Of a stretch of DNA of 64,000 nt, positions 1 through 44,690 are shown piece by piece; the first letter of the stretch is position 1; every line of letters starts with the position of its first letter. The stretch lies in the NCBI GenBank assembly GCA_000004985.1, contig GG738858.1; one strand, written 5' to 3'. The position numbers were made by a program, and so were the translations under genes. The notes beneath the pieces were generated by a model that searched no databases, was not told where the DNA came from, and worked only from the letters and a program-made list of their open reading frames with translations. The stretch comes from Naegleria gruberi (Eukaryota).

Positions 1-117
1 AAATAAGTTAAATTTTAAAAAAATTAAACATGTTCAAGTTTTTTCAGAATGGTTATTTGAATTTAATTTTATTAATGAAAATACAAAAAAATTTATTAAA
101 TTTATTAAATATTTAAA

Positions 118-1832
118 TTAAATATCTTGAATTTCTTTTTTTAAAATTTCTAAATTTTGATCAAATCTAATAAATTTACCAAATTGATTTAAATTATTAT
201 ATAAATTATTCATAAAATCATCCATAAAACAAAAACATAATAATTTAAAATGTCTAATTTCAGATTGTTCTAAATATGGTAATTGTTTTCTTTTAATATC
301 AATTAAAATTTTACAAATTGGATCAATTAAATAAAAACCAAAATCTAAATTTTCTAATAAATCTAAAAAACAAATTTCTTTTAAATCATTTAAATAAATT
401 AAAATATCATTTAATAATTCAGCTAGAGGTAAAAATTCTAAAATTTTTAAATTATTTTGATAATTATCTTTAAATTTATATTTTAAAATTGATTCTTTAA
501 AATTATTTAAAAATAAATTCATAAAAAATTTAAAATTATAATTTAATTTTTTAATAAATAAATTAATAATAATAGGTCTAATATCAATTCCAATTTTAGA
601 TAAAGTATTTCCTAAAAATAAACATTCATTTAATAATTTTTTATATTCTTCTCCATTTAAAATTGAATCTTGTAAAAAATTATTTAAATTATTTAAATAT
701 GGTTTAATTAAATGTTGAATACATGAAGATAAAATTAAATCTAAATTTGTAAATATACTTTTATATTGTGTTATAATTTCAAATATAAAATTTTTATATA
801 AATTTGTTAATTTTATAAAATTTTCAAAATTATTTGAAAAATCTAATTGTTGATTTAAATAAAAAATTCTTGATTGTAAAAATAACATTTTAATTTCTTC
901 TTCATTTTGTGTTATTTGCATTCTTTTTAAAATTCCAATTATTTGTATACTATTTTTAATATTAATTTCTTGTTTTAATTTATAAATTAATTGTGATAAT
1001 ATTGTTTTCATTATTAAATTAATTTCAATTATTATATTTTTAGTAATTTCTATATTTGGATATTGTTCATATATATCATATCCAATTTCATATATATCTA
1101 ATGCTTCTGTATATAATTGATTTTGTATACATAATTTTAATAAATTTGGTATTTCTAATATTTGTAATATTCTATTTTGATTTTCATTTAAAATTAAAAT
1201 TTTACTCTTTTCAATTTTATATTCAGATTGTTGTTGATATTGTAAAGTTTCTAATAAATTTTTAATTTTTAAATAAATTTCATCATTAATTGTAATTGTT
1301 AATTCATTTTTTAATTTATTAGTATTAGAATTAGAATTATTATTAGAATTATTAATAGTATTAGATGATGGTGATGATGTAGATATTGATTATTATTAGA
1401 ATTAATAGAAGGTGATATTGTTGTTGTTGTTGTATTTAAAAGTGATAAATTATTTAAATCATCTAATTTTTGATAATATTCATTTAATATATCCTTTTTT
1501 AAATCTAGTAATTGAATACATTCTGATTGAAGTTTTTCTGTTTCTTGTTTAATACTTTGAAACACTTTTTCATTATTTAAAAATACATTATAGTTTTTAG
1601 ATGAAAATTCAATCATTCGCTTTTTTAAATTTGTTAATTGTTGAGGAATTTCATATTCTTGTTCTCTAATTAAATGTTCTATATTATTAGAAAAATAATG
1701 ATGAAGATGATTAGAAGATGATGATGTTATTGTTGATGATGATGATAGCGATGCTGATGATGAAGGAATATTAAATAGTGAAGATGATGATGATGATGGT
1801 GTGATGGTCATGGATGAAGAAAGGCTTGTCAT
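118..1832 (-). CDS. Vps51/Dor1 (COG8)-like vesicle-tethering complex subunit. Single exon, with an apparent 1-nt frameshift at about 1385-1400.
   Basis: ORF 1311..1832 (-) and ORF 118..1011 (-) join into one continuous reading frame if a 1-nt indel is allowed inside the (AAT)n tract near 1385-1400. There are no g residues there, so no GT..AG intron is possible. The frame-0 tail 'HHHHHLILLIIL' is junk, and the other frame carries sensible coding sequence through to 118. The N-terminal coiled-coil segment 'IREQEYEIPQQLTNLKKRMIEFSSKNYNVFLNNEKVFQSI' resembles the Vps51/Dor1 domain. Confidence 0.4.
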
Positions 1833-2072
1833 TTTTTTATTACGTGGGCTTTTTTGATCAATAGATATTAATTGATGATATTGTAAATCATCATCACTAT
1901 ATCGGAATCTTTAAATTACACACAGATGGATAAATCTAATAGCATTGAACAAAAAGGCTAATAACAATTTGATGGATTCATAATTTGTATTGTACTTTTT
2001 ATTGGTGTGAAGTTGGTGAAGAAGGCTTTGAAATAAATTCGTTAACATACAAATTTTAAATTTAAAAAAAAA

Positions 2073-5000
2073 ATGTTAGCATCAACACCAGCAGGTGAAC
2101 ACGGTGTTGTATTCCAACCTAACAACAACAATATCAATTTTAATAATCAATATTCCGTGGCATCACCATCCATGATGAATGGTTCAGAATCTTCATATCA
2201 ACAAGAACAATACTATACTAGTAATATCAACAATAATAATGGATATCCACAAAATAATATTCCATCACAAGTTACATCATCAATGAAAGTTGAAAGTAGT
2301 CAAGTTGATACTAGTAAGAAGGATCAAAAATCGGAAAAGAAGAAAAAGAAGAAAAAGTCTACTGATAAAAAAGCAAGATCTGCAGAACCACGTCTACCAT
2401 ACAAAGTCTTACATCAAAAGTTAGTTTTAGATGTAGATTTGTATCAAAAGGCTTTGATAGGTTATACTGATATTATTATTACACCTTTCCACAATAATAT
2501 TGATCAAATATCATTACATTGTCTTCAATCAAGTATGTTATTTAGTAATTAGTTTGATAATTCTAATTCAATTAAAGATGTAACTGGTGTTCATGCACTT
2601 TTTATAAACAAACTTAAATCACAACCTATTGTACAACAAAATGAGGATCAAATTCAACAAGTAACTCATAATAATATTCAAAATCAAGTTAATCATCATG
2701 ATTTGGAAGTATCTATTAAAGAATTCATGTTACAATATGATATTGAAAATGAAGGAACATTAACTATTAAATTTAAAACACCATTACTAAAGAAAACAAC
2801 ATCATCTATTAGAATTTTCTTTGATTTGAAAAATCCTCTAAGTGGAGTCTATTTTGTAGATACAACAAGTAAAAATGATCAGTCAATGATAGATGATAAT
2901 GAATTGAATTCTAATACTTCAACTACACAAACAAATAATAATGATATGATTGATGAAAATTTATCATCACTTAATAGTACAATGCCACATATGTATACAC
3001 AAAGTCAAATGCAAGGAGCAAGATGTTGGTTTCCTTGTGTTGATTTATTATCATCATTTCATTCATTTGAATTTGAAATTACAAGTCATGCTGAAGCAAT
3101 GATAATTTGTTCAGGTGATTTGATAAAACAAGTTGAAAATTATTCAGGTACTTTAAAAACATCCTATTTTAAAACAAAATCCATCATTTCACCTTCAAGT
3201 GTTTGTATTGCAGTTGGACCATTTAATATTTCATATTCAAGTTTAACTCTAAATTCCTATGATTTAATATTAAATGCTTTTTATTTACCAAGTTATTCAT
3301 TGGAATCTATTAGACATACTTTAGGATTTGTGAAAAGAGCTTTAATATTTTTAGAAGATTATTTAGAATTTAAATATAAGGATTTATTTAATTTAAATAC
3401 ACTTAATATTGTATTTATTGAAAATGGTTATACAAAACAATCAACATTTAGTGGAATTTGTTTATTAGATTCAAATCAAATGATATTAGAACCAAATATT
3501 ATTGATACAGTACAAGATAATAGAATGAGTCTTGTTCGTTTAATAACTGAACAATTTTTTGGTAATTTTATTCATTCCAAAACATGGTCAGATTATTGGT
3601 TAATTGAAGGTATTGCAGGATATTTAGCCTATCAATATTATGAAAGTGAATTTGGTCAAAATGCTAAAAGATTTAAAATAATGAAAGCAGGAAAGGAATT
3701 ACTTTCAATTGAAAATCATACACAATCATTATATATTGAAAATTATTGTCATCCAAGTGAACTTTTAACAGAATATTTACTTAAGAAATCACCACTTGTT
3801 ATTTATATGATTGATAGACAAATTTCAACTTCTAATATGAGAAATTTATTGAACAAATTTTTAAAAAATGCTCATACACTTGATAGTAAGAGATATAATG
3901 ATCGTTTAATTTCATCATCAAGTTTTATCAAGACAATTGGTAAAACTTTTGCAACAGATTTAAAAGAATTTTCATCTTATTGGATTTATGGTACTGGTAT
4001 TCCACAATTTGCAATTTCATTTAAATATGATGATATGAGAAGTTGTGTTGATTTAAAAGTTAAACAAATTTTACCATTTCCTGAAATTCAACCTTTTAGA
4101 GGAAAAGTAACTGTTAGAATTTTAGAATCTGAAGGAGCACCAAATGATTTTATTGCAAATTTAGATAAGGAAGAAAATCAATTTGAATTTCATATTAATT
4201 CTAAACCTATTAAAAAGCATCACAAAAAAGTTCAAGGTGGACAAGGACAACCAACAGAAGCTGTTCGTGTTATCATTCCATTAAAATGGATTAGATTTGA
4301 TCCAGAACAAGATTGGATTAAAGTACAATCATTTTCACAAACACAAGAAATGTGGAATTATCAATTGAATGATGTTAAAGATGTTGTTGCACAATATGAA
4401 TCAATCAAAGCTTTAACATTCTTTGCAGATACTGAACCTGTTATTACAATTTTAAATAGAATTTTAAGAGATAATTCTTATTATTATCAAATACGTGTTT
4501 GTGCTGCACATGCTCTTTCTAAAATTCCACAACCAATTGAAAAGAAAGAAGCTTTAAATGTTTTAATTGGATTTTTTAAAACACAATTCTATGATGAACA
4601 ATTAACTTATTTAAAACCAAATAATTTTAAGAATTTTGCTGATTATTTCCTTAAAAAGGAAATTCCATTAGCTTTAACAAATTTTAAAGATGATAAGGTT
4701 AATAATGAAACATTTCCAGAAGTTGTTTTACTTTTATTAGAATTAATCAAATATAATGATGATTCTGAGAATTTATTCTCTGGAAATTTCTATATTGCTA
4801 ATTTAATCAAATCAATTTCACTTTTAAATACTTCAAATCCTAATTTTAATCAAAAAATTGAAAAAATACTTTACAAATATTTAGTAATTGATTCTGATTT
4901 AATTCCAAGTTATCATTATATCAAAACTGTTACTTCTTTAGAATCAATTGCAAATTTACAATCATCTGGTAAATCTAAAATTAATTTGGATGTTTTTTAT

Positions 5001-6080
5001 AGATATTTGGATTTTAAAAAATCAGATCATGTCAGATTTTCATCATGGCGTTGTGTTATGAATATTTTAGATTCAATTTTAGATTCTTCTTCTTTAAATA
5101 ATAATAATATGAATGGTAATAATTTAAATAACAATAATTTAAATGGTAATAATTTAAATGAAAAGAATATAATAACATCAAGTGGAGAATTAATATCAGA
5201 ATGTTATTCAAATGTAGAATTATTAACACATGTTAAAATAATATTTAATAGATTTATTTCATTATTAAATGATGAAAATGAAACAAGTCATGCTAAATAT
5301 GAAATTACTAAAATTATAACACAATCAATATTTAATTGTTCAGCACGTATGCTATTAGAATTTAATAATAAGAAAGTTTCATTAGCATTTATTAAAAAAG
5401 TATCAGCATTGGGATTATTTTTAATTGATATAAGATTATCAAAAATAACAAATAGAAAATTAGTTGATTTAATTTGGAATTATTTACATGATTCTAAATA
5501 TACACAATTTGATTTTAAATTAAGATCAATAATTATGAATTTATACAAATCTATTTGGTCTTCAAATATTCCATTGTGTTATGATTCTAAATTTGTTAAT
5601 AGTAATAATTTTGATCATGCTATTTTAGTTGCACCTTCTTTATATGGTATTACTGATTTGAAAATTGTTCAACCTCAACAATTGAAAAGTCATCAATATT
5701 TAGCAAGTGAACAACCACGTGTTGTATTTGATTCAAGTCAATTATCAAATTTTATTTCTTCACCTGCACTTGCACCAACTATATTTACAACAAGTCAAAT
5801 TGATAAGAAGAAACGATCTTCAAAATCATCTTCTGCTGCTCTTTCATCACTTGTTTCAAGTGCTACAGCTAATAATTCATCATCAACTGGTAGTGGTAGT
5901 GGTAGTAGTAATGGTAATGGACTTAGTGTTGTTACTTCACTCTCTACACCAACAACCATTACAATTTCTACTGCAGGTCAATCTACTGTTATTAATTCAA
6001 GTAATGGTAGTACTATTGGTAGTAGTACTAGTAAAGAAGGATTCAAAGAAGAAGGAGTCATCTTCCTCTTCCAAATCTAA
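2073..6080 (+). CDS. taf2: TFIID subunit TAF2 (TBP-associated factor 2), two exons. Intron about 2533..2661 (alternative acceptor 2688) removes the single in-frame TAG.
   Basis: Exon 1 'PRLPYKVLHQKL' matches human TAF2 'PRPYKLTHQVV'. 'GARCWFPCVD' is the degenerate M1-aminopeptidase motif that TAF2 carries. 'WNYQLNDVKDVVAQYESIKAL' matches human 'WQYQLRYERDVVAQQESILAL'. The GTATGT donor is at 2533, and both ORFs are in the same frame separated by one TAG. The frame-0 ORF ends oddly ('GVIFLFQI*') at 6080. Confidence 0.8.
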
Positions 6081-8016
6081 ATCGTCCTCTAAGAAAGAGT
6101 CCTCCTCTTCTGATAAAAAGGATAAAGATTCCTCAGAGTCTAAGAAGAAGGATAAAGATTCTGAAAAGAAGAAATCCAAGAAGGATTCCGATAAGAAGGA
6201 TAAGGATTCTGAAAAGAAGAGAAAGAGAGACTCTGAAAAATCTTCACCTTCTTCCTCATCTAAAAAGAAGAAGGAAGTTGTTGAACCTGTTACACCAACC
6301 ACTGTAAAAATCAAGTTAAATACACCAATTACAACACCGTTAGCTAGCAGTTCAACTTCAATGACAACACCTGAACAACCTAAAAAGAAAAAACCTTCTT
6401 CAAAATCCAAATCAGAAAAGTTAACTACACCTGCTTTAACAAGTGAAAAATCGACCAGTTCAAGTGCTTCTGCATCCTCATCATCTGCTATTGGTAGTAG
6501 TAGTAGTAGTAGTGGTAGTAGTAGAGGTGGTACAAGTCTATCAATTAAGAAGGAAATTAATATTGATGATCAACTTGTAACACCTGCAGCAGCAGCAACA
6601 ACAATAGCACAAACACAAGAAATTGGTAAGAATGAAAAGGAATCTATTGAAAAGAAATTGAAAAATCGTGAAGCTAAAAAGAATCAATGTAAAGCAACTC
6701 GATTAATTTTAATTACATTTGATACAAGTGAAATTAAAGTTTATGTTGAATTGGATGATGATTCACCAACAGCAGATGTAATTTATCGTAGTGTACCATT
6801 AGCATCACCTCTAGTACAATCACCTGGTAAAGGAATTGTTTATTTTACATGTGAAATTGAACATATTGAATTAGAAGAAACAGCAAGATCTGAAGTTAAA
6901 CAAGGTGAAATTGCATTCTGGGTTAGTGGTACAGCATTTGTTTTGGGATTTGGTAAAACAGTATTTTCACTTGCTAATGAAACACGTCTCTATCAACCAT
7001 GTAATATATTTGGTGAAATGATGTATCCAGTTAAATCATTACAAAAAACAGCATTACAACAAAAAGTAACTGTTAGTCGTTTCCCTAGAGTTTATATTGA
7101 TTTACCTGAACTTGATAAACGTATCGATATTGATATGTATGATACATTTAAAGATATTACAAATGGATATATTGCACCTAGATTACCATTTACTAGACAA
7201 TTTATGCCTTTATTTGGTAGAATATTATATTTTAATATTGGACATATTGATACATCACATTTAGAATCAGTTTCACCTGGTTTTCATAGAGATTATTTAT
7301 ATCCAGGTGAAATTGCTTATTGGGCAGGTGGTGATTCACTTTTACTTGGTACAGGTCCAACAGATATTAAGAAACACAATCATAATTCAAAGGAAATTAG
7401 ATATAATTTATTGGAAAATTGTTTTATTATTGGTAAAATTGTTTCAGCTGATTATAATTTATTACCTGATTTAATAGAAAAATATCCACACACACCACTC
7501 TATTTTAATAGACGTGAATTGGTTATTACCATTGATTTTGAACCAAATTTAAATGAACAAATTAATGGTGAAGGTGCTGTTAATAGTTTGGATATTTTAA
7601 TTGGAGTTTCAGGTACAATGAGTGGAGATATTATATTTGATACTTGTTTTAATGGATATGAAACAAGAGGTCATGAAATTACTCAACCACAAGGTGATAA
7701 ATGTGGTATTGTTGGAATTAAATTAAATCCAAAAGAAAATCCAATTTTAGAAACACTTCAACATGAAATTAATAATGCAACTGAAACTGCAAAACCACAA
7801 GAAGTTGTTTTATTTTGGGATTCACATACTATTGGTTTTCCATTTTCAAATAATCCTGAAACTGCTCCTTATAATTTACCTGAAATGGCAAATCCATTTG
7901 GAAGTTTTAAACAAGTTTTAAATATGGAAATGAGTTATTATCAATTTATTAACTTTTTACAAAACAGAAAAGTTAAACAATTTACAATTACAAAGAGAGA
8001 AATTGAATATAATTAA
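6040..8016 (+). CDS. In-frame (+1) continuation of TAF2. It holds a K/S/D-rich tail (like the human TAF2 lysine-rich C-terminus), then two tandem cyclophilin-like (PF04126-type) domains.
   Basis: The frame-1 ORF is open from upstream of 6040 to the TAA at 8016. Codon periodicity in the K/S-rich part is strong: 'KKDSKKKESSSS...KKRKRDSEK'. The duplicated motif 'GEIAFWVSGTAFVLGFGKT' / 'GEIAYWAGGDSLLLGTGPT' matches the G-D/E-I-A-Y-W...G..L.I.(F/Y)G signature I recall for cyclophilin-like domains. It is linked to the TAF2 frame by a 1-nt shift somewhere in 6030-6077, with no room for an intron. Confidence 0.5.
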   Translation, partial: DSKKKESSSSSKSKSSSKKESSSSDKKDKDSSESKKKDKDSEKKKSKKDSDKKDKDSEKKRKRDSEKSSPSSSSKKKKEVVEPVTPTTVKIKLNTPITTPLASSSTSMTTPEQPKKKKPSSKSKSEKLTTPALTSEKSTSSSASASSSSAIGSSSSSSGSSRGGTSLSIKKEINIDDQLVTPAAAATTIAQTQEIGKNEKESIEKKLKNREAKKNQCKATRLILITFDTSEIKVYVELDDDSPTADVIYRSVPLASPLVQSPGKGIVYFTCEIEHIELEETARSEVKQGEIAFWVSGTAFVLGFGKTVFSLANETRLYQPCNIFGEMMYPVKSLQKTALQQKVTVSRFPRVYIDLPELDKRIDIDMYDTFKDITNGYIAPRLPFTRQFMPLFGRILYFNIGHIDTSHLESVSPGFHRDYLYPGEIAYWAGGDSLLLGTGPTDIKKHNHNSKEIRYNLLENCFIIGKIVSADYNLLPDLIEKYPHTPLYFNRRELVITIDFEPNLNEQINGEGAVNSLDILIGVSGTMSGDIIFDTCFNGYETRGHEITQPQGDKCGIVGIKLNPKENPILETLQHEINNATETAKPQEVVLFWDSHTIGFPFSNNPETAPYNLPEMANPFGSFKQVLNMEMSYYQFINFLQNRKVKQFTITKREIEYN

Positions 8017-8313
8017 AATCATTAGAGAGATACCATTGAGGAGTAGAAAAGTATTATTAAATGACAATGGTTGATAAGAAAGTTCATCAATTCAATTTAG
8101 AATTTAATGTATTAAAATTACATATAATCTCTCTTCAAGACATGTAAAAGTTGATCAAAATGATTCCAACAAATAACCTCAGTAAACATTAGAAATTTCT
8201 GTAACAGTCAATTTTTTAAAACTACAAAAACCGTTCGAAAAAAACAGAAAATTCCCTCCAAACATTAAAAAAAGTAAAATACCAACAACACCAACACCAC
8301 CTCACATCTAAGC

Positions 8314-11300
8314 ATGTCATCAGATGCTCGTCTGATTCAATCACTAGAGGAAACTGCTCAATTTATTTCTAGTAAATATAAACTTGATGATGGTATGTTT
8401 GTATAATAACACTTTGTCATCCCGACTCTATAAAACATTGTACCTTAAATATGACATATCATTGTAGTATTGAATACCATTTCAAAGAGGAGACGTAATT
8501 CTCTTAAATCGTCATCATCCGAAACAACAAATATTCCTCAAATAGCCTTAGAGAAAGTCAATAATTCTCAGAGGCTTCAAAGAGAAGAGGAAGAAGATGA
8601 TGGTGCACCATCTGTTCTTTCAGCTCGTTCTCATAATTCAACAAGATTAAGTATTAAAACACCTAATAATCAACAACAACAACAATATGAAGTGATTACA
8701 CCTACAGGCTATTTACAAAATTCATTTCATTTCAATAATAATAATCAATCAATCAACCTCAATCGACCTTCAAGTGCAGCATCAAGTAATAGTTGTGTAA
8801 GTCAAAAAACAAGTACAAGTCAAACAATGTATCCTATTAGTAATTCAAAACTTTCTTCACCTAATTCAGTTCCAATTTATCCATTTTCAATGACAACAGA
8901 TCATCAACAACTCAATACTCAACAATCTCTAATTCATGAAGAACAATTACTTACTCCAAGACAACAATCATGCTTAATGAATCAACAAGAAGAAATATTT
9001 TCAATTCATGAATTAGATAGTGCTTCATTAAGATTACTTCAGGAAATTCATGATCCTAAATCTTCCCTAAATAGTAGTAGATCAAATAGTAGTTTAGGAA
9101 TTCATAATCAAAATAATAACAATTCATTTCATTCTTCTTCTAATAATTATTCACAACAATTAATTAATGATGAAGAATTAAATCAAGCTATAAATAGTCA
9201 TAACCAATTAAGGAAAGAAATAAGTAATGTCATTCCACAACAAGATTTTATTGAACCACCAAATGAAGAAGAATCAATTCTAGAAGAAGAATATGTTGAA
9301 AATTATGAAATTGATGAAACATATGAAATTGAAAATCCACATTTAAATAGAATTCATTTAACAACAAGTGAATCAATTATTAATGAAGTTTTTGATTTAA
9401 ATAACAAACAAACAAGAGAAACAATTGAACAAGTCATTTCACAATTAACTCAAGTTGAAGATGAATTAGATAAACAAGAAGATGAATTAATTATTAAGGA
9501 ACAATTTTTAAATCCAATAATTTTAAATAATAATTTAACTAATAATTTAAATAATAATTTAAATAGAACATCTTTGAATCAATCTATTAATAATATCAAT
9601 AATAATAATATGAATAATAATAATACATATACTAGTCAACAACAATTAAATCAATCGAATCCTTCTAATAATCTTAATAATTTTACACAATGTATACCAC
9701 CATTAAATGAAGATGTTGATTATAAAACAAGATTACAATATTATATGAAATATTTATTACATTCTAATGAAAAGATAAAAATGGAAAGTATTAAAAATTT
9801 AAAAGAATTAATTTCTAATAATCAAATTTATCAATCCTCAACAGATATATATTATAAACTAGTTGAAATATTAAATAATAATATAATACAATTATTTTAT
9901 AATCAAACCAAAATATTAAATAGAAATGTAATTGAATTATTAATTTTATTATATAAATTTATAAATAATGAAATAATTGAAAATATAATTGAATTATTAA
10001 AAGATTTTAAATATTTTGAAATTTATGATTCAATATTAACATTATTATTTAGATTAGGTATAACAACAATTGAAAGAGTATTTGAAATATTAAATATTGA
10101 ATCAGAATGGAATAATATTATTTTAACACATTTAGTAAATCATCCTTTAATTATTGAAAATGTAATACTTCCTATTTTACATAAAGAATGTTTATCATTT
10201 GATTTAGATAAAAGAGAATGTGCTATTAAATCAATTAAACATTTTGGTTTAATTTCACATAAATGTTTAAATACTTTACTAAATATGTTAATTAATGGTT
10301 CATGTGATAGAATTTTAATTGGACAAGCAATTAGATCTATGGGAATTGAAGGTGAAAAATCTTTAATTAAATTAATGGAATCTTCAAATTCTAAAGTTAA
10401 AGAATCAATTGCTACTGTTTTTGGTGAATTACCATATTTAGTACAATCTCATTTAACTATAATTGCAAATTCAGATATTCATCATTTTATCAAATCACAA
10501 AATCCTAGAATTTTATATTATTTTAATGGTGATGATCAATTACCTCCTTTATTATTATTTGATTCAAGAGAATTAATTTCCATAACTAGAAATATTATTA
10601 GAGATGGTTTATTAGATGAAATTGAATTTGGAAATCAATTTACATGTAAATCTGAATTAACTTTATTACATGCAATGGTTTCATCTTTAAAACCAATTAT
10701 TTATAATGATACTATAAATGGAAATAATACATTTTTAAATAATACTACTTGTATTATTAATAATAATTATACTTTATTAAATAATACAATGAATAATAAT
10801 TATAAAAATCAAACATCAATACTAAATAATATTAATAATACTAATAATATTAATACATCATTTAATTCAACTTGTTATAATTCTCAACATGATCAAAATA
10901 CATCATTTTCAATATTAAAAAGTTATTATATAAAAGAATGTCAAAGAATTAAACAATTATATCAACCTAATAATAATATATTTAAAAATATTAATAATAC
11001 AACTACTATTACTACTATTATAGAAAATCAAAGTGGTAATATTTGCAACAATAGTAGTGGTAGTAGAAAAATGTATTTAAATTCATATTTTGAACAAGTA
11101 CAAGTGAATACAATTTCAAATGAATGTTTAAATAGTTTAATTTGTAATTTTAAATATTCAGATGAATGTGTTAGAATTGCAAGTGTTAAATCAATTATTA
11201 ATTTAATAAGTTTAAATAATATTAATCAATTATTAGAATCATTAAAAATTGAATGTTTAACAGATCCATCACCAAGAGTAAGATCATTAGCATTGGATGC

Positions 11301-12276
11301 TTTTGCTAAAATTGGAAAATCATGTTCATGTTTAAATAGAAGAGAAAAGAGATCAATTTTACAATCAATATTACCATTAATAAGAGATTCACATTGGAAT
11401 GTTAGAATGAGTGCATGTAATGCATTATGTGAACATTATTTACAAATAATTAACATGTCTAATTTTGATAAGGATTTTTATAGACAAATTTTCCATATTT
11501 TAATAACTGCATTAAGAGAAGGAACTTTATCAAGAAATGAAATTTGTAAATGTTTAAGTTTATTAGAATATGATGGTATTTCACAATTAATTTATTTATT
11601 AAGACAAGATTCACAAAGTATGAGTATTCAAGTTAGAATTTCATCTTGTTATGGACTATCTTTAATTTCAATTGATTCTCCATATATAGATAGAATAGTT
11701 GAAACATTATTCATGACTTGTAATTCAATTGAAAAAACTCCACCTCTTGTTAGAAAAGCTGCTATTAAATCTTTAGGTGATTTAGCAAGAAAATCTAAAG
11801 ACAAATTATCATATCTAAGTCCAAGATCACTTTTACCATTTTTATATTCCTTTTTAAAAGATAAGCATTTAATTGTACGTCAAATGTCTGCTCAAGTTTT
11901 AGCTCATTCAGGTCCACATGGTGAATTATTATTAATGGAAGCATTATTGAAAGATTCAAATTCAATTATTCGTTCAAGTGCTGCTTTTGGAATGACTTTT
12001 ATTGGTCCAAAATCAATCATTTCATTAATATTAGCACTCTCAAATGAAATTAATTCACAAGTTAAGAAATCAATTTATATTTCAATTGAATCTTTTAAAT
12101 TTGATGAAATTATTTCAATTATTCAAAACAAATCTCAAAAGGATTCAATTTTAAATACTTTATACACAATTTTAAATAGAATTAATAATTCAAGAGAAAA
12201 TTGTTATCCATCAGATTATGTTTTAGATTTGTTTAATTATATTATTAATACTTTTCATTTAGAAAATCAACAATAA
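8314..12276 (+). CDS. N/Q-rich protein with C-terminal HEAT-type repeats. Two exons, intron 8393..8467 (75 nt).
   Basis: ATG at 8314 opens 'MSSDARLIQSLEETAQFISSKYKLDD'. GTATGT donor at 8393, and the acceptor 'cattgtag' ends at 8467 in the correct phase. HEAT-like repeats in the C-terminus: 'DPSPRVRSLALDAFAKIG', 'DSHWNVRMSACNALC', 'LVRKAAIKSLGDLA', 'HLIVRQMSAQVLAH', 'NSIIRSSAAFGMTF'. Confidence 0.6.
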
Positions 12277-12392
12277 ATTGTTTTTTCAATTAACAATTAT
12301 TCACCATCATCATCAGATTAATATTTTAGATTATTTTAGATTAATGTTTGATTAAATCAAATTATTGTTCTTATATAAATTTAAATATTAAA

Positions 12393-12920
12393 TTATTTAA
12401 AAGAATTATTTGGAATGGAGGCTAACATTGGATCTGATAATTTTCTATTATCGGAAATAGTACTGTATGAATTTGTTATTATTGGTTTTTGATTAATTAA
12501 TAATGGTATTTGATTATTATTATTATTACTACTACTACTGATGGTATTATTAGCCTTTGATGAATTTGAAGAGGATGGCATATTTGATGAGTCTGTAAAG
12601 GTTAGGGAAGGAATTTTGTTATTATTAGTATTCATTGTATTGCCATTTGTCAACATTTTAGGCTGATGTTGTTGATATTGTACTTGTAACATTGGAATTG
12701 AATTTGATTGATTCATTCTCTCATCCATAATCATTGCAATTTGATTAGCCTGAGAATTAACTTTATCAACAGCATCAAATAAAGAATGAATAATAGCCTC
12801 TGTTAATGAAACTGGTACATTTCTATCTTTTTGTAATCTTCTACGTGCTTGAACAATTTTAAGAGATGAAAATAAACTAGCCAATGCTCCAATAATCATA
12901 TAAAGAGGTGTTGATGACAT
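12393..12920 (-). CDS. Hypothetical protein with an N-terminal hydrophobic anchor and an N/S-rich C-terminus.
   Basis: 175-aa ORF starting at ATG. The N-terminal TM-like segment is 'LYMIIGALASLFSSL'. Codon usage fits its neighbours. No homology recognised. Confidence 0.35.
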   Translation of the reverse strand: MSSTPLYMIIGALASLFSSLKIVQARRRLQKDRNVPVSLTEAIIHSLFDAVDKVNSQANQIAMIMDERMNQSNSIPMLQVQYQQHQPKMLTNGNTMNTNNNKIPSLTFTDSSNMPSSSNSSKANNTISSSSNNNNNQIPLLINQKPIITNSYSTISDNRKLSDPMLASIPNNSFK

Positions 12921-13148
12921 TTCCGATTTTCTCCTCTTCTTGAAAAAGCCTTTACAATAAATTATTTTTTTTTAAAATAAATTCAAATAAATAATTGATA
13001 GGAAAATCGAGAATGATACCATTTCAACCTTGTCTTTGAAAACATGAATCATATTCCATCCAAATATTAATAACATCTAAAAAAGAAACAAATTAAATAT
13101 AAAAATTACAATAAAAATTTTTAGCCTTTTTTTGAAATTTTAAAAAAA

Positions 13149-14145
13149 ATGAAGAGAGGTCTTGTTCGCACCACTTCGATCCTCACGAGGCCATCAGCAT
13201 GGAGAAATTGTCCTATTGCTCTCGTTAATAATATTAATTCTATTGTTATTAATACAAATAATACACAAAGTAGAAACAAAACTATTGAAGCTAATAGAAA
13301 AGTTGATTTTAGTTGGGGACAAAATAGAAAGGCTGCCTTGAAGCACACTTATTTGACTGTTGAACAATCCAAGGAAGCCGTCAATGATTTGAAAAATGCT
13401 TTGGAAACTAATTACAAGACTGATATTGAAAATATCTCATCAATGTGTAAGTTTTTACTTTGAAAAAACGCGGAAATGTAGGAACGATATTAGCTAATGA
13501 AACCCAACTCTATGAAAAGTATATTCAATATATGGAATTAATGTTAAAAGCAAGGAGTGTTGTTTGTGCTAAATACGGTATTAATACATCCAACAATGAT
13601 ACTAATGGTATGTTTACAATGATGACAATTTTATTCTTACAATATAACAATATATAATAGATCGTAGACTTCGTATGTCTTTGGGAAGAAATAGTGCTAA
13701 TGATGAAGAATTACTTAAGCAAATTCAAGACTTGCACCAATATTTGGCCAAGTCTTGCTTCGGAATTGAAAAATTAGAAACTAGATTGGAAGAAATTCGT
13801 GTTTTGGGTGTTCACCAATTGGCTAAACAAAAAATGGTGGAAGAGTTTGAAAGTATAGCTCATACACTCTCATTGGAAGAATTCCTTCCAAAATCACGTA
13901 CAACATTGTTCGACCTTGAAAGAAGTTTGTTGAAATCATATGCTGTAGATATTGCTAAGGAAGAAAAGAGAAAGAGCCAATTTGAAAATGGTGAATTAAG
14001 TGAAGAAGAGAAAATGAAGTCCTATGTTGATTGGATTAAGGAAGTTCAAGTTGACGAATCTGAAATTCAAAACAAGTTGGACAAACCAGAAGATTGGATT
14101 ACATTTAGATTTATTTTGAACGATTTGCTTTTTAGACATGGATAA
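13149..14145 (+). CDS. Hypothetical mitochondrion-targeted protein of about 300 aa. Three exons: join(13149..13446, 13494..13607, 13661..14145).
   Basis: Three consecutive ORFs in frames 0, 2 and 1. GTAAGT donor at 13447 and GTATGT donor at 13608. Acceptors 'gatattag' (13493) and 'atataatag' (13660) restore the frame. The N-terminus 'MKRGLVRTTSILTRPSAWRN' looks like a mitochondrial presequence. Confidence 0.55.
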
Positions 14146-14186: not shown

Positions 14187-15318
14187 TTAGACCTGTATTG
14201 CTACTGCATACTTTCCTTGGTTACTGTCCTTTGATACTGGATTATCAATTAAACATAAACATTCTGTGTTAGTGATTGGATTTGTTTTGGTTGCAAATTT
14301 AGTCGTTTGTTCATTTCGACTTGTTTCATTTGCATTAGTGCCACTCGGATTATGGAAATATTCTTGAATGAAACGATTCAAATCCATTCTCATATTAGCT
14401 CTATTATTGGCTCTTCTTTCTCTTCTATGAGTTTCAATTCTTGTATCAATTTGTTCATGTTCAGTAAAATCTCTAATTCTAATAAGGAATGCAACAAGTA
14501 AACAAACAGCAAATTGAAGTGATTCTGCTGCAACAATTTGAATCCAAAAGTTTTGAGAAATTTCACCAACAAACATGAAAACCATCATCAAGGCAAATAT
14601 GGCAATATAGGAAGCCAAAAATAGGAAGAGTAAAAATCTTAACTTTTTAAATAACATTAATTTCATAAATGTTGAAGATTTCATAATATCCACTTGAAGA
14701 ACTAATGGTGCTTCCACTTCCAAATATCTATGATTTAATAATTTAATATTCATTCCTATCGAAGATAATGCATGACCAAATAATATTACATAGAGAATAA
14801 ATAGTGGAAACTATTTAAGAGCCTTATTACAAACTCTATCAAAAAACACTAATACTTACCATAAAGAAAATATTGAAAATTCTTGCAACTTCGCAAAGTG
14901 CTAAACAAGTTAAATTCCATATAATTGATCTCTTTTCTGTATTTTCCAAAGAGTTTCTTGTTATTGCAACTCCCTTCGCCAGTATTAATAAACACCCAAA
15001 TAATACAAGATTAAATATTACATTAGCAGTGTTAGATAATAAAGTAGGAGTGACAGTACATTGTGATTTTCCGTTATATGCACAATCATAGAATAAATAA
15101 ATACTACAAGATGTATGAATTATTTTAGCTAATGGTACAAGAACAATATATCGATGAAGAGAAAGGCTATACTTTTTTAAATAGAGAAAATAAACAACAT
15201 GTATAATCCATAGTAATCCAACAACAGCCCACAACCCTGTAAATACACCATATGCAATTGGTAAATTTTCATAGGCTTTCGGATTGAATTGATCCGAGGT
15301 TGTTGTGGTGGTTGACAT
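14187..15318 (-). CDS. Multi-pass (about 7 TM) membrane protein, possibly in the Lung-7TM/GPR107/TMEM87 family. Two exons: join(15318..14860, 14810..14187), intron 49 nt.
   Basis: GTAAGT donor on the minus strand after 'NIFFM'. The acceptor 'aaatag' gives an in-frame start 'FPLFILYVILFGHALS'. Several hydrophobic helices run across both exons. The family assignment is tentative. Confidence 0.5.
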
Positions 15319-15604: not shown

Positions 15605-17783
15605 TTAATTAAAATTTCTAATCTTCGATTTAAACTCTTCAATGTTATCAAAATTGAGTTTTACCAAATGTCTTTTTGTTAGTGTTTGTTTAGTATAAGG
15701 GCATGTATTCTTTGGTTCAGTATTTAATACTTTTAACCATGTTTGATATCCTAAAACATGTCCATATGGAGAAATAGCTGGATCTTTAACTTGTTCTAAT
15801 GTAATTGGATCAATGAAATCTTCCAAAATATTTCTTGTATGATTTTCATCATCCGAATCTTCATCAGAAGATTGTTCAGAACTTTCACTATCACTCTTTG
15901 AATTATTACTTGATGAACCTGTATGAGATGAAACTGATTCACTATCATTTTGATGACTATCTTCATCTTCTTCATCATCTGATGGTTCAACAACTTTCTT
16001 TTTCTTAGATTTCCTAGTTGGAGTTGTTGGTTTTTTTCTCTTTTTAGATGTTGATGATGAACTAGATGATTTACTAGCACTACTGGCACTTCCACCTCCG
16101 CTCTTATTTTTACATTCTTCAACAATATCCAATTTAAAATCTCCTGATTTTAAAAGAGTTCTATAAAAATTACTACATTGATATCCAACTCTTCCAGGTA
16201 TTCTCTTTGAAAATAACCCCCATTGAAAATTATCAGTCTTTTCTATATACTCTTTCAATTTCTTAATAAATAACTCTTTCTCTTTTTGATTCCATTTTCC
16301 ATTCTTTTGAGATTCACCAGGTTCATTAAATCTATAATAATAAGCATTTGGATTGGTATTAATTTTTTCATAAGCTTCAATTCTTGCTTTTGACCATCCA
16401 TCCTTTTTAATGACATCACTCAAAGCATCGTCAAGAAGTAATCTACTAGAACTAATATTGGTGGAGGTTTTTCTCTTTCTCTTCTTTTTTTCCTCTTGTT
16501 TAATTTCTTCATCAATTTCTGAAATTTCTTCATCTTCTTCCTCTTCTTCAATTTCACATTCACTCTGAGATTCTTCTTGTCTTGATTTTTTAGAACTCTT
16601 CTTGGAAGATGATTTCTTTGTTTCTTTTTGCTTAGTTTTACTTGTCTTGTTAGAAGATGGCTTTTTTCTTTCCTTAATTACAAAGTCATCATCATCTTTA
16701 TCATCTTCTTCCTCTTCATCACTCATTTCATCATTATTATTACTATTAGAAATATTATTTGTAACAGGTGTAACAGATCGTTTAGAAGATTCATTTGGTG
16801 GAATGAATGAAGTTGAAGTGCTTGGAGTTTCATTTTGATCTGACATTGATGGTGATTCAGGTGAGTTTTGATCTTGTTCATAATTCCATTTATCAGCAAG
16901 TGGAACCAAATGATCAACTGTTAAGCTTGGATTTGGATTATATTCTAAAGCAATTTCCTTTCGAATTTGTTGTAAAAAAGTGTAATCTGTCAACTTGATA
17001 ATTGCTTCTTCCTCGATATTGTTAGTAAGCTTGAGAGCATAAAGTGCCTCTTCATTAGAAACATGTGGAATAACACATCGCAATTGATAAATTTGATGTT
17101 TACGATCTCTCTTTTCTAATCTTCTAAATAATTCATGTTGGTCTTTCAATCTCTTAATAACTTGTAATTTTTCTTCTTGTGTCAAGGAAGGATCACAAGA
17201 TTTTTCAAAATTAATGTTTCTATTTCTTTCAATTTCCTTCTTAGTATACAATCCTTCCCTTTCAATGATGTCCAAAAGTATTTGTTCATCATCCTTATTT
17301 TGAATTCTTTTGAAATCTTGTTGTTTTTTAAATCTATCAATTCTGTTTAATAAAATTAAACTTGACATGGGTATCTTATTAGAATGTTCACTTGTTTTTT
17401 GATCACAAATGCAACGAGAATCAAAATATTCACAATCATTGTCATCTTTAATAGTTTAGTAAATGTTAAAAATTTTGTAAAAACAAACCCATTGTTATAC
17501 TTGATGACGGTTGTTCAAAGAAAATGCTCTTCCCAATTTTAATATGATTAGGAACGTTTGAACGTTTAGAAGTAGATTTTTGATTTTGATTACTAGATCG
17601 TTTTTGTGATGAAGATTTCTTCTTCAATCTACTCCTTCTATTCTCTTGTTCACTATCCGATCCATCACTATCAATATTGTTTTGTTGTTGTGTTCTTCTC
17701 ACCACTCTTCTTCGTGGAGAAGTAGCTTCAGAATGAGTAGAAGCCTCCGATTGAACGGAATTACTTCTCTTTCTTGAAGACAT
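15605..17783 (-). CDS. U-box E3 ligase-like protein with a Myb/SANT-like domain and a CUE/UBA-like segment. There is probably a 5' exon at 17783..~17500, joined by a 43-55 nt intron ending at 17446.
   Basis: The C-terminal U-box signature is 'FIDPITLEQVKDPAISPYGHVLGYQTWLKVL...CPYTKQTLTKRHLVKL'. The SANT/Myb-like segment is 'WGLFSKRIPGRVGYQCSNFYRTLL'. Acidic/Ser-rich linkers separate the domains. The upstream S/R/K-rich ORF 17466..17783 joins in phase through donor GTATAA (17500) or GTTTGT (17488) to the acceptor 'ttaaag' at 17446. Confidence 0.6.
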
Positions 17784-27039: not shown

Positions 27040-28711
27040 ATGATGAACCAACAAACAAGTCACCAACATGCAGAAAATGCTTCGGAAGAAATAATTGAAT
27101 CATTTTCACCCTATTCTTGTGTTTATTGTAGAAAGGCACATCGTAAATGGTTAGTTTCAAAGTTATTAATCATGATTAATTTTATATTTATCTATATTAT
27201 TAGTGGTAAGTATTCTATTAATATTTAAATTAATATTATTAATATTTAATACATCATTCCATAAAGATAGAAAATTGCCATCATGTTCTAAATGTAAAAG
27301 TAGAAATTCGCCATGTGAATATGTTGATTTAAAAAGAAGGAAGAATATTCAAATTGGATCATCATCTGTTCAGGAATGTTTGGATTTACAAAATAATTTA
27401 AAACAATTGAATTTAATGGATGGAAATGATTTTGTACAAAATGATTTATTTGCATCTTTGAGAATGAATATAATTGGAGCTTATTTTGAAATAATTTGTT
27501 TGGGATGTCCTTTTTTGGAAAAAGAAACACTTGAAAGTTATTTATATTCAAAGGAAATTTTACAATCTAATAGATTAATACTTGCATTGGTATTTTCAAT
27601 TCAAACTCTTGTTGGTAAGTTAATTTTTTAAATTTACTATAAAAGGAAAGAGCAAAGATTTGGATTTGTAGATTTGGCATTTGAAAGTTATAAGAAAACT
27701 CTTTCAATTTTACCAAATGATAAAGCAGATCAATTTTATGCAGCATGTGTTTATGTAAATTTAGGAATTTACTTAATTGGAGAAGGTAAAAAGAAGGAAG
27801 CTAATTTTTATGCACATTGCTCTGATTACTATTTTAAACAATTAGATTCTAATTATCAACATAATGAATTTGATAGAAATTTAATTTGGTTTAAAATGAC
27901 ACTGGAATACATGTCTAGTCCATTATATCCATTAATGGCATCTCAAGAATTGATTGATAATTACAAAATTATATTGAAACATAACATGCCAATGGAATGG
28001 CAAGAAGTAGTGATGGATTTGAAAAATTCAACAATATCTAATGTTGAAAGCAGAATCAAAGTGTATCAATTAATTGCATTCACTTTACAGGGAGAGAGAA
28101 GAGTTGGAGGTTATGGAGTTTCATTATGTGAAATTATTTATTTATCAATGCATTCATGTATTTCAATTTCTTTCTATTCATTGGTAGATCCAATTTATTT
28201 TAAAGATCAAATTTATGCTGAAACTGTTAAAGCAGCAGAATTGACAGAATATGAACTATTTTCCTATTCTGCCCCTCAAGTAATTATGAATATTCTAGTT
28301 GCTATTAAGGTACATTTAGAAATGCAACAATTAGTGGAGAGTGGACAAATTACAGGAGTCTCCTTACAAGATTATTACAAAATTATTGCAAAGAATTATA
28401 GAGCTGTAAATATTTTGAGAAAAAAGTATAGAGTGATAGATGCACAACATTCAGATATTGTTACAAAACTTGAGGAACTAAATAAGGAGGTAGATAAGGA
28501 ACCTTCGCCTCAGCAATACAATATTGATGATAAGATGAAGAGATTGGAGGATTTTGAAAGTCAACTCAGTTCTGTCATGAAAAAATTTGTTAGTATGCTT
28601 CCATTTAAAGAAAAAGAAAACCAGCCACAAATGGAAGAACTCAATGGATTGGAATTCTATACAGACATGTTTTTATTGGATGATACAGATGATTTATTCT
28701 TAGAATTTTAA
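27040..28711 (+). CDS. Zn(II)2Cys6 (GAL4-type) binuclear-cluster transcription-factor-like protein, multi-exon. The last intron is 27615..27670. The 5' splice structure is unusual (see findings).
   Basis: 'SCVYCRKAHRK' (C-x2-C-R-K-x-H-x-K) followed by 'DRKLPSCSKCKSRNSPCEY' (C-x2-C-x6-C). GTAAGT donors at 27216 and 27615. The acceptor 'tttgtag' at 27670 is in phase with the ORF starting at 27674. Confidence 0.5.
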
Positions 28712-44226: not shown

Positions 44227-44690
44227 GTGTTGAGAACTCATTTAACATCCTCTTCAATTACCACTTCGACTGGGCTAGAAAGAGATCAAAACAGTAGAAA
44301 TTTCAATTCAAGATACAAAAAGAATTGGGCTTGGGAACGATAATTATGAGAGCCGTTTCTATGATGGAAACGATGGAATATACAACACCACAATTTGGAT
44401 ATCCTAACTTTGTTAAATATTATCATTAAATATTGTTGTTACAATACTGTTAAACCAAGGTACCAACCAGCTGTTGTTTTTCCTGTTACGCGAAGAAAAG
44501 CGCTAAAAAACGCCGAAAACGTTACAAATTTATTCGACCAATCCAGCTGGGTTGTATTACAAAAAAATATTGTAACTGCCGTGTGCAGCCTATTGCTATC
44601 ATCATCCTCATCTAGTTACAACTCTTGTAACAAAACAAATAATTCCTGATTCAAAAGTAGTACACACAACATCAAAATAATTTAAACATC

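What the first reader, a model, noticed from the sequence alone, without database searches (positions are those of the whole stretch)
5707..8016. TAF2 reading frame continues after a 1-nt shift into two tandem cyclophilin-like domains
The TAF2 frame ends with an implausible 'GVIFLFQI*' at 6080. The +1 frame is open across the same region. It encodes a K/S/D-rich tail (as in human TAF2) and then two copies of a domain with the signature G-E-I-A-(F/Y)-W...G...L(G/L)-(F/T)-G. I recall this as the hallmark of the cyclophilin-like family found mainly in bacteria and archaea. There is no stop or ATG-delimited boundary between TAF2 and these domains. The two options are a real TAF2 fusion to a possibly horizontally acquired domain pair, or a frameshift error that hides a gene boundary.
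Basis: partly seen in the sequence, partly recalled or inferred. Interest (0 to 1): 0.7.

Follow-up and report, generated by a model that had tools for sequence, protein, structure and literature searches.

The report
TAF2 gene with cyclophilin-like tail
This is one gene for the transcription factor subunit TAF2 that, as in Naegleria and its relatives, ends in three cyclophilin-like domains of unknown function, and the one-base frame break inside it is most likely a sequencing error in a draft assembly.

Summary
The TAF2 frame stops at 6078-6080 after 'GVIFLFQI'. The +1 frame is open from 5707 to 8016. It encodes a K/S/D-rich linker and then Pfam PF04126 (TM1367-type cyclophilin-like) domains, E=1.4e-22. 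There are three domains, not two; the third is degenerate.

The organism is not a dictyostelid. It is a heterolobosean close to Naegleria and Willaertia, judged by best hits and by shared gene order.

The fusion is real and old. N. fowleri encodes TAF2, linker and three domains in one uninterrupted 2440-codon ORF. Two short-read environmental contigs and a Pharyngomonas kirbyi transcript do the same. Acrasis and Willaertia also carry the fusion.

Removing one base near 6033 gives a 1965-aa protein that aligns end to end with these orthologues, linker motifs included.

No intron-like signal or known frameshift signal sits at the break. A second intron-less frame break lies 4.7 kb away in the COG8/Dor1 gene, and the window holds two 50-N gaps. 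So the break is most likely an assembly indel. A real recent mutation cannot be excluded without reads.

The function of the module is unknown. I found no paper describing the architecture.

The parts
2073..2532 (+). Exon 1 of the TAF2 gene. The ATG follows an A-run, and the exon ends ...DQISLHCLQS.
   Evidence: The N-terminus aligns with Willaertia P0002 and N. lovaniensis P0003 (KVLHQKLV.DVDL...ISLHCLQ).
2533..2577 (+). A 45-nt spliceosomal intron, GTATGT...TTAAAG, GC 0.18.
   Evidence: Removing it restores HCLQS-NVTGVH, as in the orthologues. Willaertia has a 77-nt T-rich intron at the same place.
2578..6032 (+). TAF2 core: M1-peptidase-like domain, Ig-like third domain and TPR/HEAT domain. 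It is followed from about 5700 by an S/T/G/N-rich low-complexity stretch. Codon starts are at multiples of 3.
   Evidence: Pfam gives PF25577 at 1.3e-38, PF25316 at 6.5e-16, PF01433 at 4.3e-11 and PF17900 at 2.3e-5. Identity to heterolobosean TAF2 proteins is 59-66%.
6033..6033 (+). Inferred position of the one surplus base, in 'AGT A AAG AAG'. The true site can only be placed within about 6020-6036.
   Evidence: The upstream frame is homology-supported up to ...GSSTS. The downstream frame is supported from KKDSKK, which is shared with P0001 and resembles ESKKKESK in N. fowleri. Deleting 6033 gives a 1965-aa ORF with no internal stop.
6078..6080 (+). TAA stop reached by the TAF2 frame 15 codons after the shift, after '..EGFKEEGVIFLFQI'.
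6034..6693 (+). K/S/D/E-rich, presumably disordered linker in the +1 frame. It contains the NLS-like KKRKR (6214-6228) and the VKIKL motif.
   Evidence: 'EKKRKRDSEK' and 'VKIKL' align with 'EKKRKRESEK' and 'IKIKL' of the single N. fowleri ORF and with other orthologues. GC is 0.35, against 0.25-0.28 in the flanking intergenic DNA.
6694..7083 (+). Cyclophilin-like domain 1 (PF04126), motif GEIAFWVSGTAFVLGFGKT.
   Evidence: Pfam on this domain alone gives 3.2e-19 and 69 bits. It matches PDB 2NNZ and 1ZX8 by sequence.
7084..7512 (+). Cyclophilin-like domain 2, motif GEIAYWAGGDSLLLGTG.
   Evidence: Pfam on this domain alone gives 8.7e-4 and 19.6 bits, below the 27-bit cutoff. It counts as the second stretch. 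R-D-Y-L-x-P-G-E-x-A-x-W is invariant in the window protein and three orthologues; the more distant fusion proteins vary here.
7513..8013 (+). Cyclophilin-like domain 3, degenerate (QEVVLFWDSHTIGFPF).
   Evidence: No Pfam hit in the window. The orthologous domain of P0004 scores 3.9e-13 and that of Pharyngomonas P0014 scores 5e-18. hhalign against the domain-1 profile gives probability 91.7%, E=7.7e-7.
8014..8016 (+). TAA stop of the full gene.

Best explanation
Positions 2073-8016 hold one gene for a roughly 1965-aa TAF2 (TFIID subunit 2).

Its conserved core is followed by a long, basic, probably disordered linker with an NLS-like KKRKR. After that come three tandem TM1367-type cyclophilin-like domains (PF04126).

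This architecture is ancestral to Heterolobosea. The window comes from an unidentified member close to Naegleria and Willaertia.

The reading frame is broken by one surplus base at about 6033. This is most likely an indel error in a draft assembly, so in the organism the whole protein is made from one frame.

Shown here:
- the domain identities;
- orthology and shared gene order;
- continuity of the ORF in relatives;
- absence of intron or recoding signals at the break.

Inferred:
- The base is an artefact rather than a mutation.
- The module works as a non-PPIase ligand- or peptide-binding (or still unknown enzymatic) appendage. It would be tethered to TFIID by the flexible linker, much as fungi appended bromodomains to TAF2.
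For: Fusion in relatives:
- The N. fowleri gene L004 3001-10323 translates directly to the 2440-aa protein XP_044559494.1, which carries TAF2 domains plus PF04126. It lies within a single stop-free ORF, 2941-10323.
- The environmental contigs L001 (ORF 370-5454) and L003 (21-4352) are also single ORFs spanning TAF2 through the domains.
- The Pharyngomonas kirbyi transcript GECH01001979.1 has a complete 1730-aa ORF with the same architecture. Pharyngomonada and Tetramitia are the two main heterolobosean clades.
- Acrasis kona and Willaertia magna proteins also carry both parts.

Fit of the repaired window gene:
- The one-base-corrected product aligns end to end with all of these, including linker motifs just after the shift.
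- Gene order Dor1(-)/TAF2(+)/HEAT(+) is shared with N. fowleri and N. lovaniensis. Dor1 also lies next to TAF2 in Willaertia.
- The downstream frame is open for 660 codons, P of about 5e-24 by composition.

No intron at the break:
- Putative introns elsewhere in the window are 36-55 nt, GC 0.16-0.30, with donors GTAAGT, GTATGT or GTTTGT.
- None of the 150 frame-restoring GT..AG pairs at the junction has such a donor.

Draft quality of the assembly:
- The COG8/Dor1 gene has a second frame break, between 1389 and 1314 on the minus strand, in a stretch with no GT at all. The N. fowleri orthologue is one ORF.
- The window holds two 50-N gaps.
- The Willaertia and N. lovaniensis assemblies show frame breaks in this same gene, at other places and in the other direction. 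Annotators patched or split them.
Against: - No reads or transcripts of this organism were available. Its proteins and DNA were not found in any searched collection. The surplus base therefore could not be checked directly.
- The context (A3 in AGTAAAGAAG) is not a long homopolymer, where indel errors are most common.
- The function of PF04126 is unknown (DUF369; PMC2954229), so the proposed role of the module rests on inference only.
- The structural model is of moderate confidence: pLDDT 66.9 from a 4-sequence alignment.
Confidence: 0.8

Rival explanations
1. The frameshift is a real, recent mutation in the sequenced strain, or one allele of it. TAF2 would then be truncated after its core. 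The linker and cyclophilin-like module would be lost, or made separately from the in-frame ATG at 6361 as a gene fission in progress.
For: - The sequence as given has a stop at 6078-6080.
- An in-frame ATG lies at 6361, upstream of the domains.
- The A3 context is not a classic error hotspot.
- No reads were available.
Against: - The downstream 660 codons are intact and conserved at 38-42% identity to the closest orthologues, so any lesion must be very young.
- The stretch 6081-6360, which would become untranslated, still reads as conserved linker (KKRKRDSEK, VKIKL).
- A second frame break in the neighbouring COG8/Dor1 gene and the N gaps point to assembly quality. Two independent real lesions are less likely.
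Confidence: 0.12
2. A very short or non-canonical intron (length 3n+1) spans the junction and restores the frame on splicing. An example is 6001-6031, GTAATG...TACTAG, 31 nt.
For: - Introns in this genome are tiny, 36-55 nt.
- 150 GT..AG pairs of the right length class exist around the junction.
- Willaertia annotators modelled an intron in the same linker.
Against: - No candidate has the GTAAGT, GTATGT or GTTTGT donor (G at +5) seen in all seven putative introns of the window.
- All candidates have coding-like GC of 0.28-0.47, and they read as (GGT AGT)n or K/S codons.
- N. fowleri, L001 and L003 have no intron here.
- The Willaertia 'intron' is about 100 nt of purine-rich K/E/S-coding-like sequence, unlike its T-rich first intron. 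It looks like a patch over an indel.
Confidence: 0.03
3. Programmed +1 ribosomal frameshifting joins the two frames, giving a short TAF2 and a long TAF2-cyclophilin-like product.
For: - The two frames overlap over 374 nt with no stop in the +1 frame.
- The frame-0 stop context ATC TAA A would allow a +1 reading into KSSSKKE.
Against: - No known +1 signal is present. By my own knowledge these are CUU-AGG-C, UCC-UGA-U and AAA-UAA.
- Four orthologous sequences are plainly in frame, so the feature is not conserved.
- The Willaertia break goes the other way, -1.
- Homology supports the +1 frame from 6034 on, 45 nt before the stop.
Confidence: 0.02

Closest known systems
Naegleria fowleri TFIID subunit 2 (XP_044559494.1 / UniRef100_A0A6A5BK98, 2440 aa) and Willaertia magna ABK040_005934 (1807 aa)
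   Same: Same domain order: M1-like, Ig-like, TPR, K/S-rich linker with KKRKR, then three cyclophilin-like domains. Identity is 59-61% in the TAF2 part and 38-40% in the cyclophilin-like part. Both species have Dor1 upstream; N. fowleri also shares the downstream HEAT gene.
   Different: The window copy has a one-base frame break. It is shorter than the N. fowleri protein, which has long low-complexity inserts. Its third domain is as degenerate as in the other Naegleria-clade members.
TM1367 (PDB 1ZX8, 2KA0) and AF2241 (PDB 2NNZ): Pfam PF04126, formerly DUF369, the atypical cyclophilin fold
   Same: Sequence matches at 7.9e-8 to 3.5e-5. Foldseek gives 1ZX8 at E=4e-7, target-normalised TM 0.81, rmsd 2.2 A. 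The motif G-[DE]-[IV]-[AG]-[FY]-W...G...FGKT is shared.
   Different: Those are stand-alone proteins of about 125-150 aa from a bacterium and an archaeon. Here three copies sit in tandem at the C-terminus of a eukaryotic general transcription factor. The function of the family is unknown (PMC2954229).
Canonical TAF2 (human, yeast) and fungal TAF2 with appended bromodomains
   Same: The core is the same: M1-aminopeptidase-like plus HEAT/TPR, followed by a charged low-complexity tail. Like some fungal TAF2 proteins, which gained 1-6 bromodomains (PMC6672047), the heterolobosean protein gained extra globular domains at the C-terminal end.
   Different: The appended domain is a cyclophilin-like DUF, not a chromatin reader of known specificity. 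The 2019 survey of TFIID evolution calls TAF2 otherwise invariable and does not mention this architecture.
Environmental proteins with ARID/BRIGHT plus PF04126 (P0074, P0136)
   Same: This is another pairing of the same cyclophilin-like domain with a nuclear DNA-binding or transcription domain.
   Different: The partner differs and there is a single copy of the domain. The organisms are unknown.

Membership tests
TAF2 (TFIID subunit 2) | M1-aminopeptidase-like N-terminal domains | tested here: met
   PF01433 scores 4.3e-11. PF17900 scores 2.3e-5 with 25.0 bits, just under its 25.8-bit cutoff.
TAF2 (TFIID subunit 2) | TAF2 Ig-like third domain and TAF2 C-terminal TPR/HEAT region | tested here: met
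   PF25316 scores 6.5e-16 and PF25577 scores 1.3e-38.
TAF2 (TFIID subunit 2) | Orthology with named TAF2 genes, by best hits and gene order | tested here: met
   59-66% identity to heterolobosean TAF2 proteins. The Dor1/TAF2/HEAT neighbourhood is shared.
TAF2 (TFIID subunit 2) | Incorporation into TFIID | not testable with these tools
   Needs biochemistry.
Pfam PF04126 Cyclophil_like (TM1367 type) | HMM score above the gathering cutoff of 27 bits | tested here: met
   The whole region scores 80.3 bits. Domain 1 alone scores 69.4 bits. Domain 2 alone scores 19.6 bits, below the cutoff. Domain 3 has no hit in the window, but its orthologues score 49.7 and 65.5 bits.
Pfam PF04126 Cyclophil_like (TM1367 type) | Cyclophilin-like beta-barrel fold resembling 1ZX8 and 2NNZ | tested here: met
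   Foldseek gives 1ZX8 at E=4e-7 and TMt 0.81, and 2NNZ at TMt 0.75. The model is only moderately confident, at pLDDT 66.9. The output does not say which of the three domains matched.
Pfam PF04126 Cyclophil_like (TM1367 type) | Third repeat is homologous to the first two | tested here: met
   hhalign of the domain-3 alignment against the domain-1 alignment gives probability 91.7%, E=7.7e-7.
Canonical cyclophilin PPIase (PF00160) | Match to the Pro_isomerase model or its active-site signature | tested here: not met
   There is no PF00160 hit even at E<=1 or E<=10 per domain. PPIase activity itself cannot be tested here.
Programmed +1 ribosomal frameshift site | Known slippery or stall motif, and conservation of the frame change in orthologues | tested here: not met
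   No such motif is seen at 6020-6080 (the motif list is from my own knowledge). Orthologues are in frame.
Spliceosomal intron of this genome | GT..AG with a GTAAGT/GTATGT-type donor, low GC, length 36-55 nt, frame-restoring | tested here: not met
   None of the 150 frame-restoring GT..AG pairs has G at +5, and their GC is 0.28-0.47.

The most novel reading that the evidence does not exclude
The TM1367-type cyclophilin-like domain, so far a prokaryote-type domain of unknown function, may be a working part of the general transcription machinery in a whole eukaryotic phylum. A triple module has been tethered to TFIID through TAF2 since before Pharyngomonada and Tetramitia split. The same domain also pairs with ARID DNA-binding domains in other uncultured eukaryotes. 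This would point to an undescribed transcription- or chromatin-linked binding or enzymatic activity.
Probability: 0.4. Interest if true: 0.6.

Novelty: new member of a known kind. Interest (0 to 1): 0.4.

Why it matters
For annotation: taken at face value, the frame break yields a truncated TAF2 and an orphan 'cyclophilin-like' ORF. The N. lovaniensis and Willaertia annotations show the same gene being split or patched. The correct model is one gene of about 1965 codons.

For biology: TAF2 is described as nearly invariable outside fungi (PMC6672047). A phylum-wide addition of three cyclophilin-like domains is an unreported exception. It also gives PF04126/DUF369 a first testable functional context, namely TFIID in Naegleria. 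That organism can be cultured, and N. fowleri is a human pathogen.

Tried and rejected
Searches that led nowhere:
- A word-indexed homology search with the domain region alone found nothing. The exhaustive HMMER search was needed.
- NCBIfam gave no hit.
- I tried to identify the organism, or find a second copy of the junction. Three exact look-ups of window proteins failed. A helicase homology search gave only a 57% metagenome hit. Two exact DNA scans of metagenome contigs found nothing.
- The AFDB fold library was unavailable.
- Naming the closest single-domain and ARID-fusion hits returned no organism names. The donor lineage of a possible horizontal transfer could therefore not be addressed.

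Readings I rejected:
- Dictyostelid origin, because of best hits and shared gene order.
- A gene boundary at 6080.
- An intron at the junction.
- Programmed frameshifting.
- A canonical PPIase cyclophilin.

Other adjacent-ORF junctions in the window were checked for further frameshifts. One turned out to be a 38-nt intron in a helicase gene. One spans an N gap. The others were uninformative.
Full report
**1. What the sequence shows**

- The + strand has an ORF at 2703..6080 and a second ORF at 5707..8016 in the +1 frame. They overlap by 374 nt.
- The first ORF is TAF2: PF25577 at 1.3e-38, PF25316 at 6.5e-16, PF01433 at 4.3e-11. It ends '...GSSTSKEGFKEEGVIFLFQI*'.
- In the second frame, everything upstream of about 6034 is a V/L-rich reading of (GGT AGT)n. 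From 6034 it reads KKDSKKKESSSSSKSKSSSKKESSSSDKKDKD... and stays open to 8016.
- That is 660 codons without a stop in a 30% GC sequence, P of about 5e-24 by composition. The other two frames of the same stretch hold 27 and 113 stops.
- The gene starts at ATG 2073. It has a 45-nt intron at 2533-2577 (GTATGT..AAAG). Removing it restores HCLQS-NVTGVH as in the orthologues.

**2. The downstream domains**

- Pfam gives PF04126 Cyclophil_like at E=1.4e-22, 80 bits against a cutoff of 27, in two stretches.
- By sequence, PDB 2NNZ (AF2241) matches at 7.9e-8 and TM1367 (1ZX8, 2KA0) at about 3e-5.
- An AlphaFold model was built from a 4-sequence alignment: pLDDT 66.9, pTM 0.65. Foldseek finds 1ZX8 at E=4e-7, target-normalised TM 0.81 and rmsd 2.2 A. 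Next come 2NNZ, 2KA0, KslB and 3KOP.
- There is no match to the canonical cyclophilin PPIase model.
- The region splits into three domains.

| Domain | Window coordinates | Pfam PF04126 on the domain alone |
|---|---|---|
| D1 | 6694-7083 | 3.2e-19 |
| D2 | 7084-7512 | 8.7e-4 (19.6 bits, below the 27-bit cutoff) |
| D3 | 7513-8013 | no hit |

- D3 is nonetheless a third copy. The orthologous D3 of P0004 scores 3.9e-13 and that of Pharyngomonas scores 5e-18. The Naegleria-clade D3 alignment matches the D1 profile at probability 91.7%, E=7.7e-7.

**3. Organism**

- The best TAF2 hits are heterolobosean: an ENA metagenome protein P0001 (64%), Willaertia magna (60%) and N. lovaniensis (66% over 56% of the query).
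- The neighbours are also shared. Dor1/COG8 lies upstream on the opposite strand and a HEAT-repeat gene lies downstream, as in N. fowleri and N. lovaniensis. Willaertia shares the Dor1 neighbour.
- The species itself is in none of the searched collections.
- It is not a dictyostelid.

**4. Is the fusion real?**

- The exhaustive search with the domain region found 170 hits.
- Twelve of the top nineteen hits, and P0026 further down, carry TAF2 domains as well as PF04126: P0008, P0002, P0004, P0009, P0010, P0012, P0013, P0014, P0016, P0017, P0019 and P0026.
- Named members:
  - N. fowleri XP_044559494.1, 'TFIID subunit 2', 2440 aa;
  - Willaertia magna ABK040_005934, 1807 aa;
  - Acrasis kona KAL0489706.1, a fragment;
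  - the Pharyngomonas kirbyi transcript GECH01001979.1, with a complete 1730-aa ORF.
- Pharyngomonada and Tetramitia are the two main branches of Heterolobosea. The fusion therefore predates their split.
- At the DNA level:
  - The N. fowleri gene L004 3001-10323 translates directly to the 2440-aa protein. It lies in one stop-free ORF, 2941-10323.
  - The megahit contig L001 has one ORF at 370-5454.
  - The Logan contig L003 has one ORF at 21-4352.
- Deleting base 6033 from the window gives a 1965-aa product. It aligns with these proteins end to end.
- The fit includes the linker right after the shift: KKDSKK with P0001, EKKRKRDSEK with N. fowleri EKKRKRESEK, and VKIKL with IKIKL.
- Identity is 59-66% in the TAF2 part and 38-42% in the cyclophilin-like part for the closest three.

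**5. What is the frame break?**

- *Intron.* Putative introns elsewhere in the window are 36-55 nt, GC 0.16-0.30, with donors GTAAGT, GTATGT or GTTTGT.
  - Two of these are backed by homology or domain continuity: 2533-2577, and the 38-nt helicase intron at 30195-30232.
  - Of the 150 GT..AG pairs that would restore the frame at the TAF2 junction, none has such a donor. All have coding-like composition.
- *Programmed frameshift.*
  - I see no known +1 signal. The motif list is from my own knowledge.
  - The orthologues are in frame.
  - The Willaertia assembly has a break in the same linker but in the opposite direction. Its annotators bridged it with a purine-rich 'intron' of about 100 nt that reads as K/E/S codons.
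  - The N. lovaniensis assembly has two breaks in this gene, which is annotated as two genes.
- *Assembly error.* The window is a draft.
  - It contains two 50-N gaps.
  - The neighbouring Dor1/COG8 gene has its own frame break, between 1389 and 1314 on the minus strand. That low-complexity stretch contains no GT dinucleotide at all. The N. fowleri orthologue is a single ORF.
  - Two intron-less one-base breaks in conserved genes within 6 kb are best explained by consensus indel errors.
- A real, very recent mutation cannot be excluded without reads. The A3 context is not a typical error hotspot.
- The exact site can only be placed within about 6020-6036.

**6. How it most likely works**

Shown: one gene with the layout TAF2 core, then about 310 residues of low-complexity linker (with KKRKR), then three cyclophilin-like domains. 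The layout is conserved across a phylum.

Inferred:
- The module is a TFIID appendage on a flexible tether.
- D1 and D2 keep the family's G-E-[IVL]-[AS]-[FY]-W motif (G-D-V in D2 of the Pharyngomonas protein) across all aligned fusion proteins. This fits a conserved ligand or peptide site.
- D3 keeps the motif in the more distant members (P0004: GELAYW) but has lost it in the Naegleria clade. It may now be structural.
- The function of PF04126 is unknown (DUF369; PMC2954229).
- Cyclophilin-like folds include enzymes such as KslB, so an enzymatic role is not excluded.

**7. Comparison with what is known, and novelty**

- The architecture is present in public protein databases under automatic annotation.
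- I found no paper on it. Searches for TAF2 / cyclophilin-like / Naegleria, for TM1367, and for TFIID / Heterolobosea returned nothing relevant.
- The 2019 survey of TFIID evolution reports only fungal bromodomain gains in TAF2 and calls the rest invariable (PMC6672047).
- The window gene is thus a new member of an existing but undescribed architecture.
- The frame break itself is most likely ordinary.
- Two environmental proteins combine an ARID DNA-binding domain with PF04126. This is a second link between the domain and nuclear DNA-binding proteins.

**8. Verdict**

- Interest is moderate, 0.4.

Noticed in passing
window 1314-1389 (minus strand), within the Dor1/COG8 gene at about 121-1691: There is a second apparent one-base frame break, in an N/S/T/H-rich low-complexity run with no GT dinucleotide. 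The N-terminal part is in frame -2 (1691-1467) and the C-terminal part in frame -1 (1308-151). The N. fowleri and Willaertia orthologues are single ORFs.
   Followed up: partly
window 45443-45492 and 62473-62522: Two runs of exactly 50 N mark scaffold gaps. The first lies inside a + strand coding region (ORFs 44661-45527 and 45436-47403), so the window is a draft scaffold.
   Followed up: partly
window 2533-2577, 14811-14859, 17446-17488, 27615-27650, 30195-30232, 34477-34516, 58951-59005: Introns in this genome appear to be very short, 36-55 nt. They are AT-rich (GC 0.16-0.30) with donors GTAAGT, GTATGT or GTTTGT. Only two were checked against homology or domain continuity.
   Followed up: partly
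proteins P0074 (816 aa) and P0136 (830 aa) from environmental contigs: These have an ARID/BRIGHT DNA-binding domain followed by a PF04126 cyclophilin-like domain. This is a second architecture that joins the domain to a nuclear DNA-binding module. P0109 joins the domain to a coiled coil and a C-type lectin. The organisms are unknown.
   Followed up: partly
L005 (N. lovaniensis PYSW02000034.1) 5914-13186 and L002 (Willaertia magna JBEGDK010000001.1) 8735-8838: The same gene is broken into three overlapping ORFs in the N. lovaniensis assembly and annotated as two genes (1343 aa and 997 aa). In Willaertia a frame change in the K/E/S linker is bridged by a coding-like 'intron' of about 100 nt. Both public models probably need correction.
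   Followed up: partly
window 8315-12276 (+): The downstream neighbour is a large HEAT-repeat protein with a short first exon (ATG 8315). An intron seems to start at GTATGT around 8394. The gene is syntenic with the HEAT (GCN1-like, faint hit) gene downstream of TAF2 in N. fowleri and N. lovaniensis.
   Followed up: no
window 2578-5700: The TAF2 core coding sequence has only 23.5% GC. That is lower than the flanking intergenic DNA (25-28%) and the window average (30.4%).
   Followed up: no
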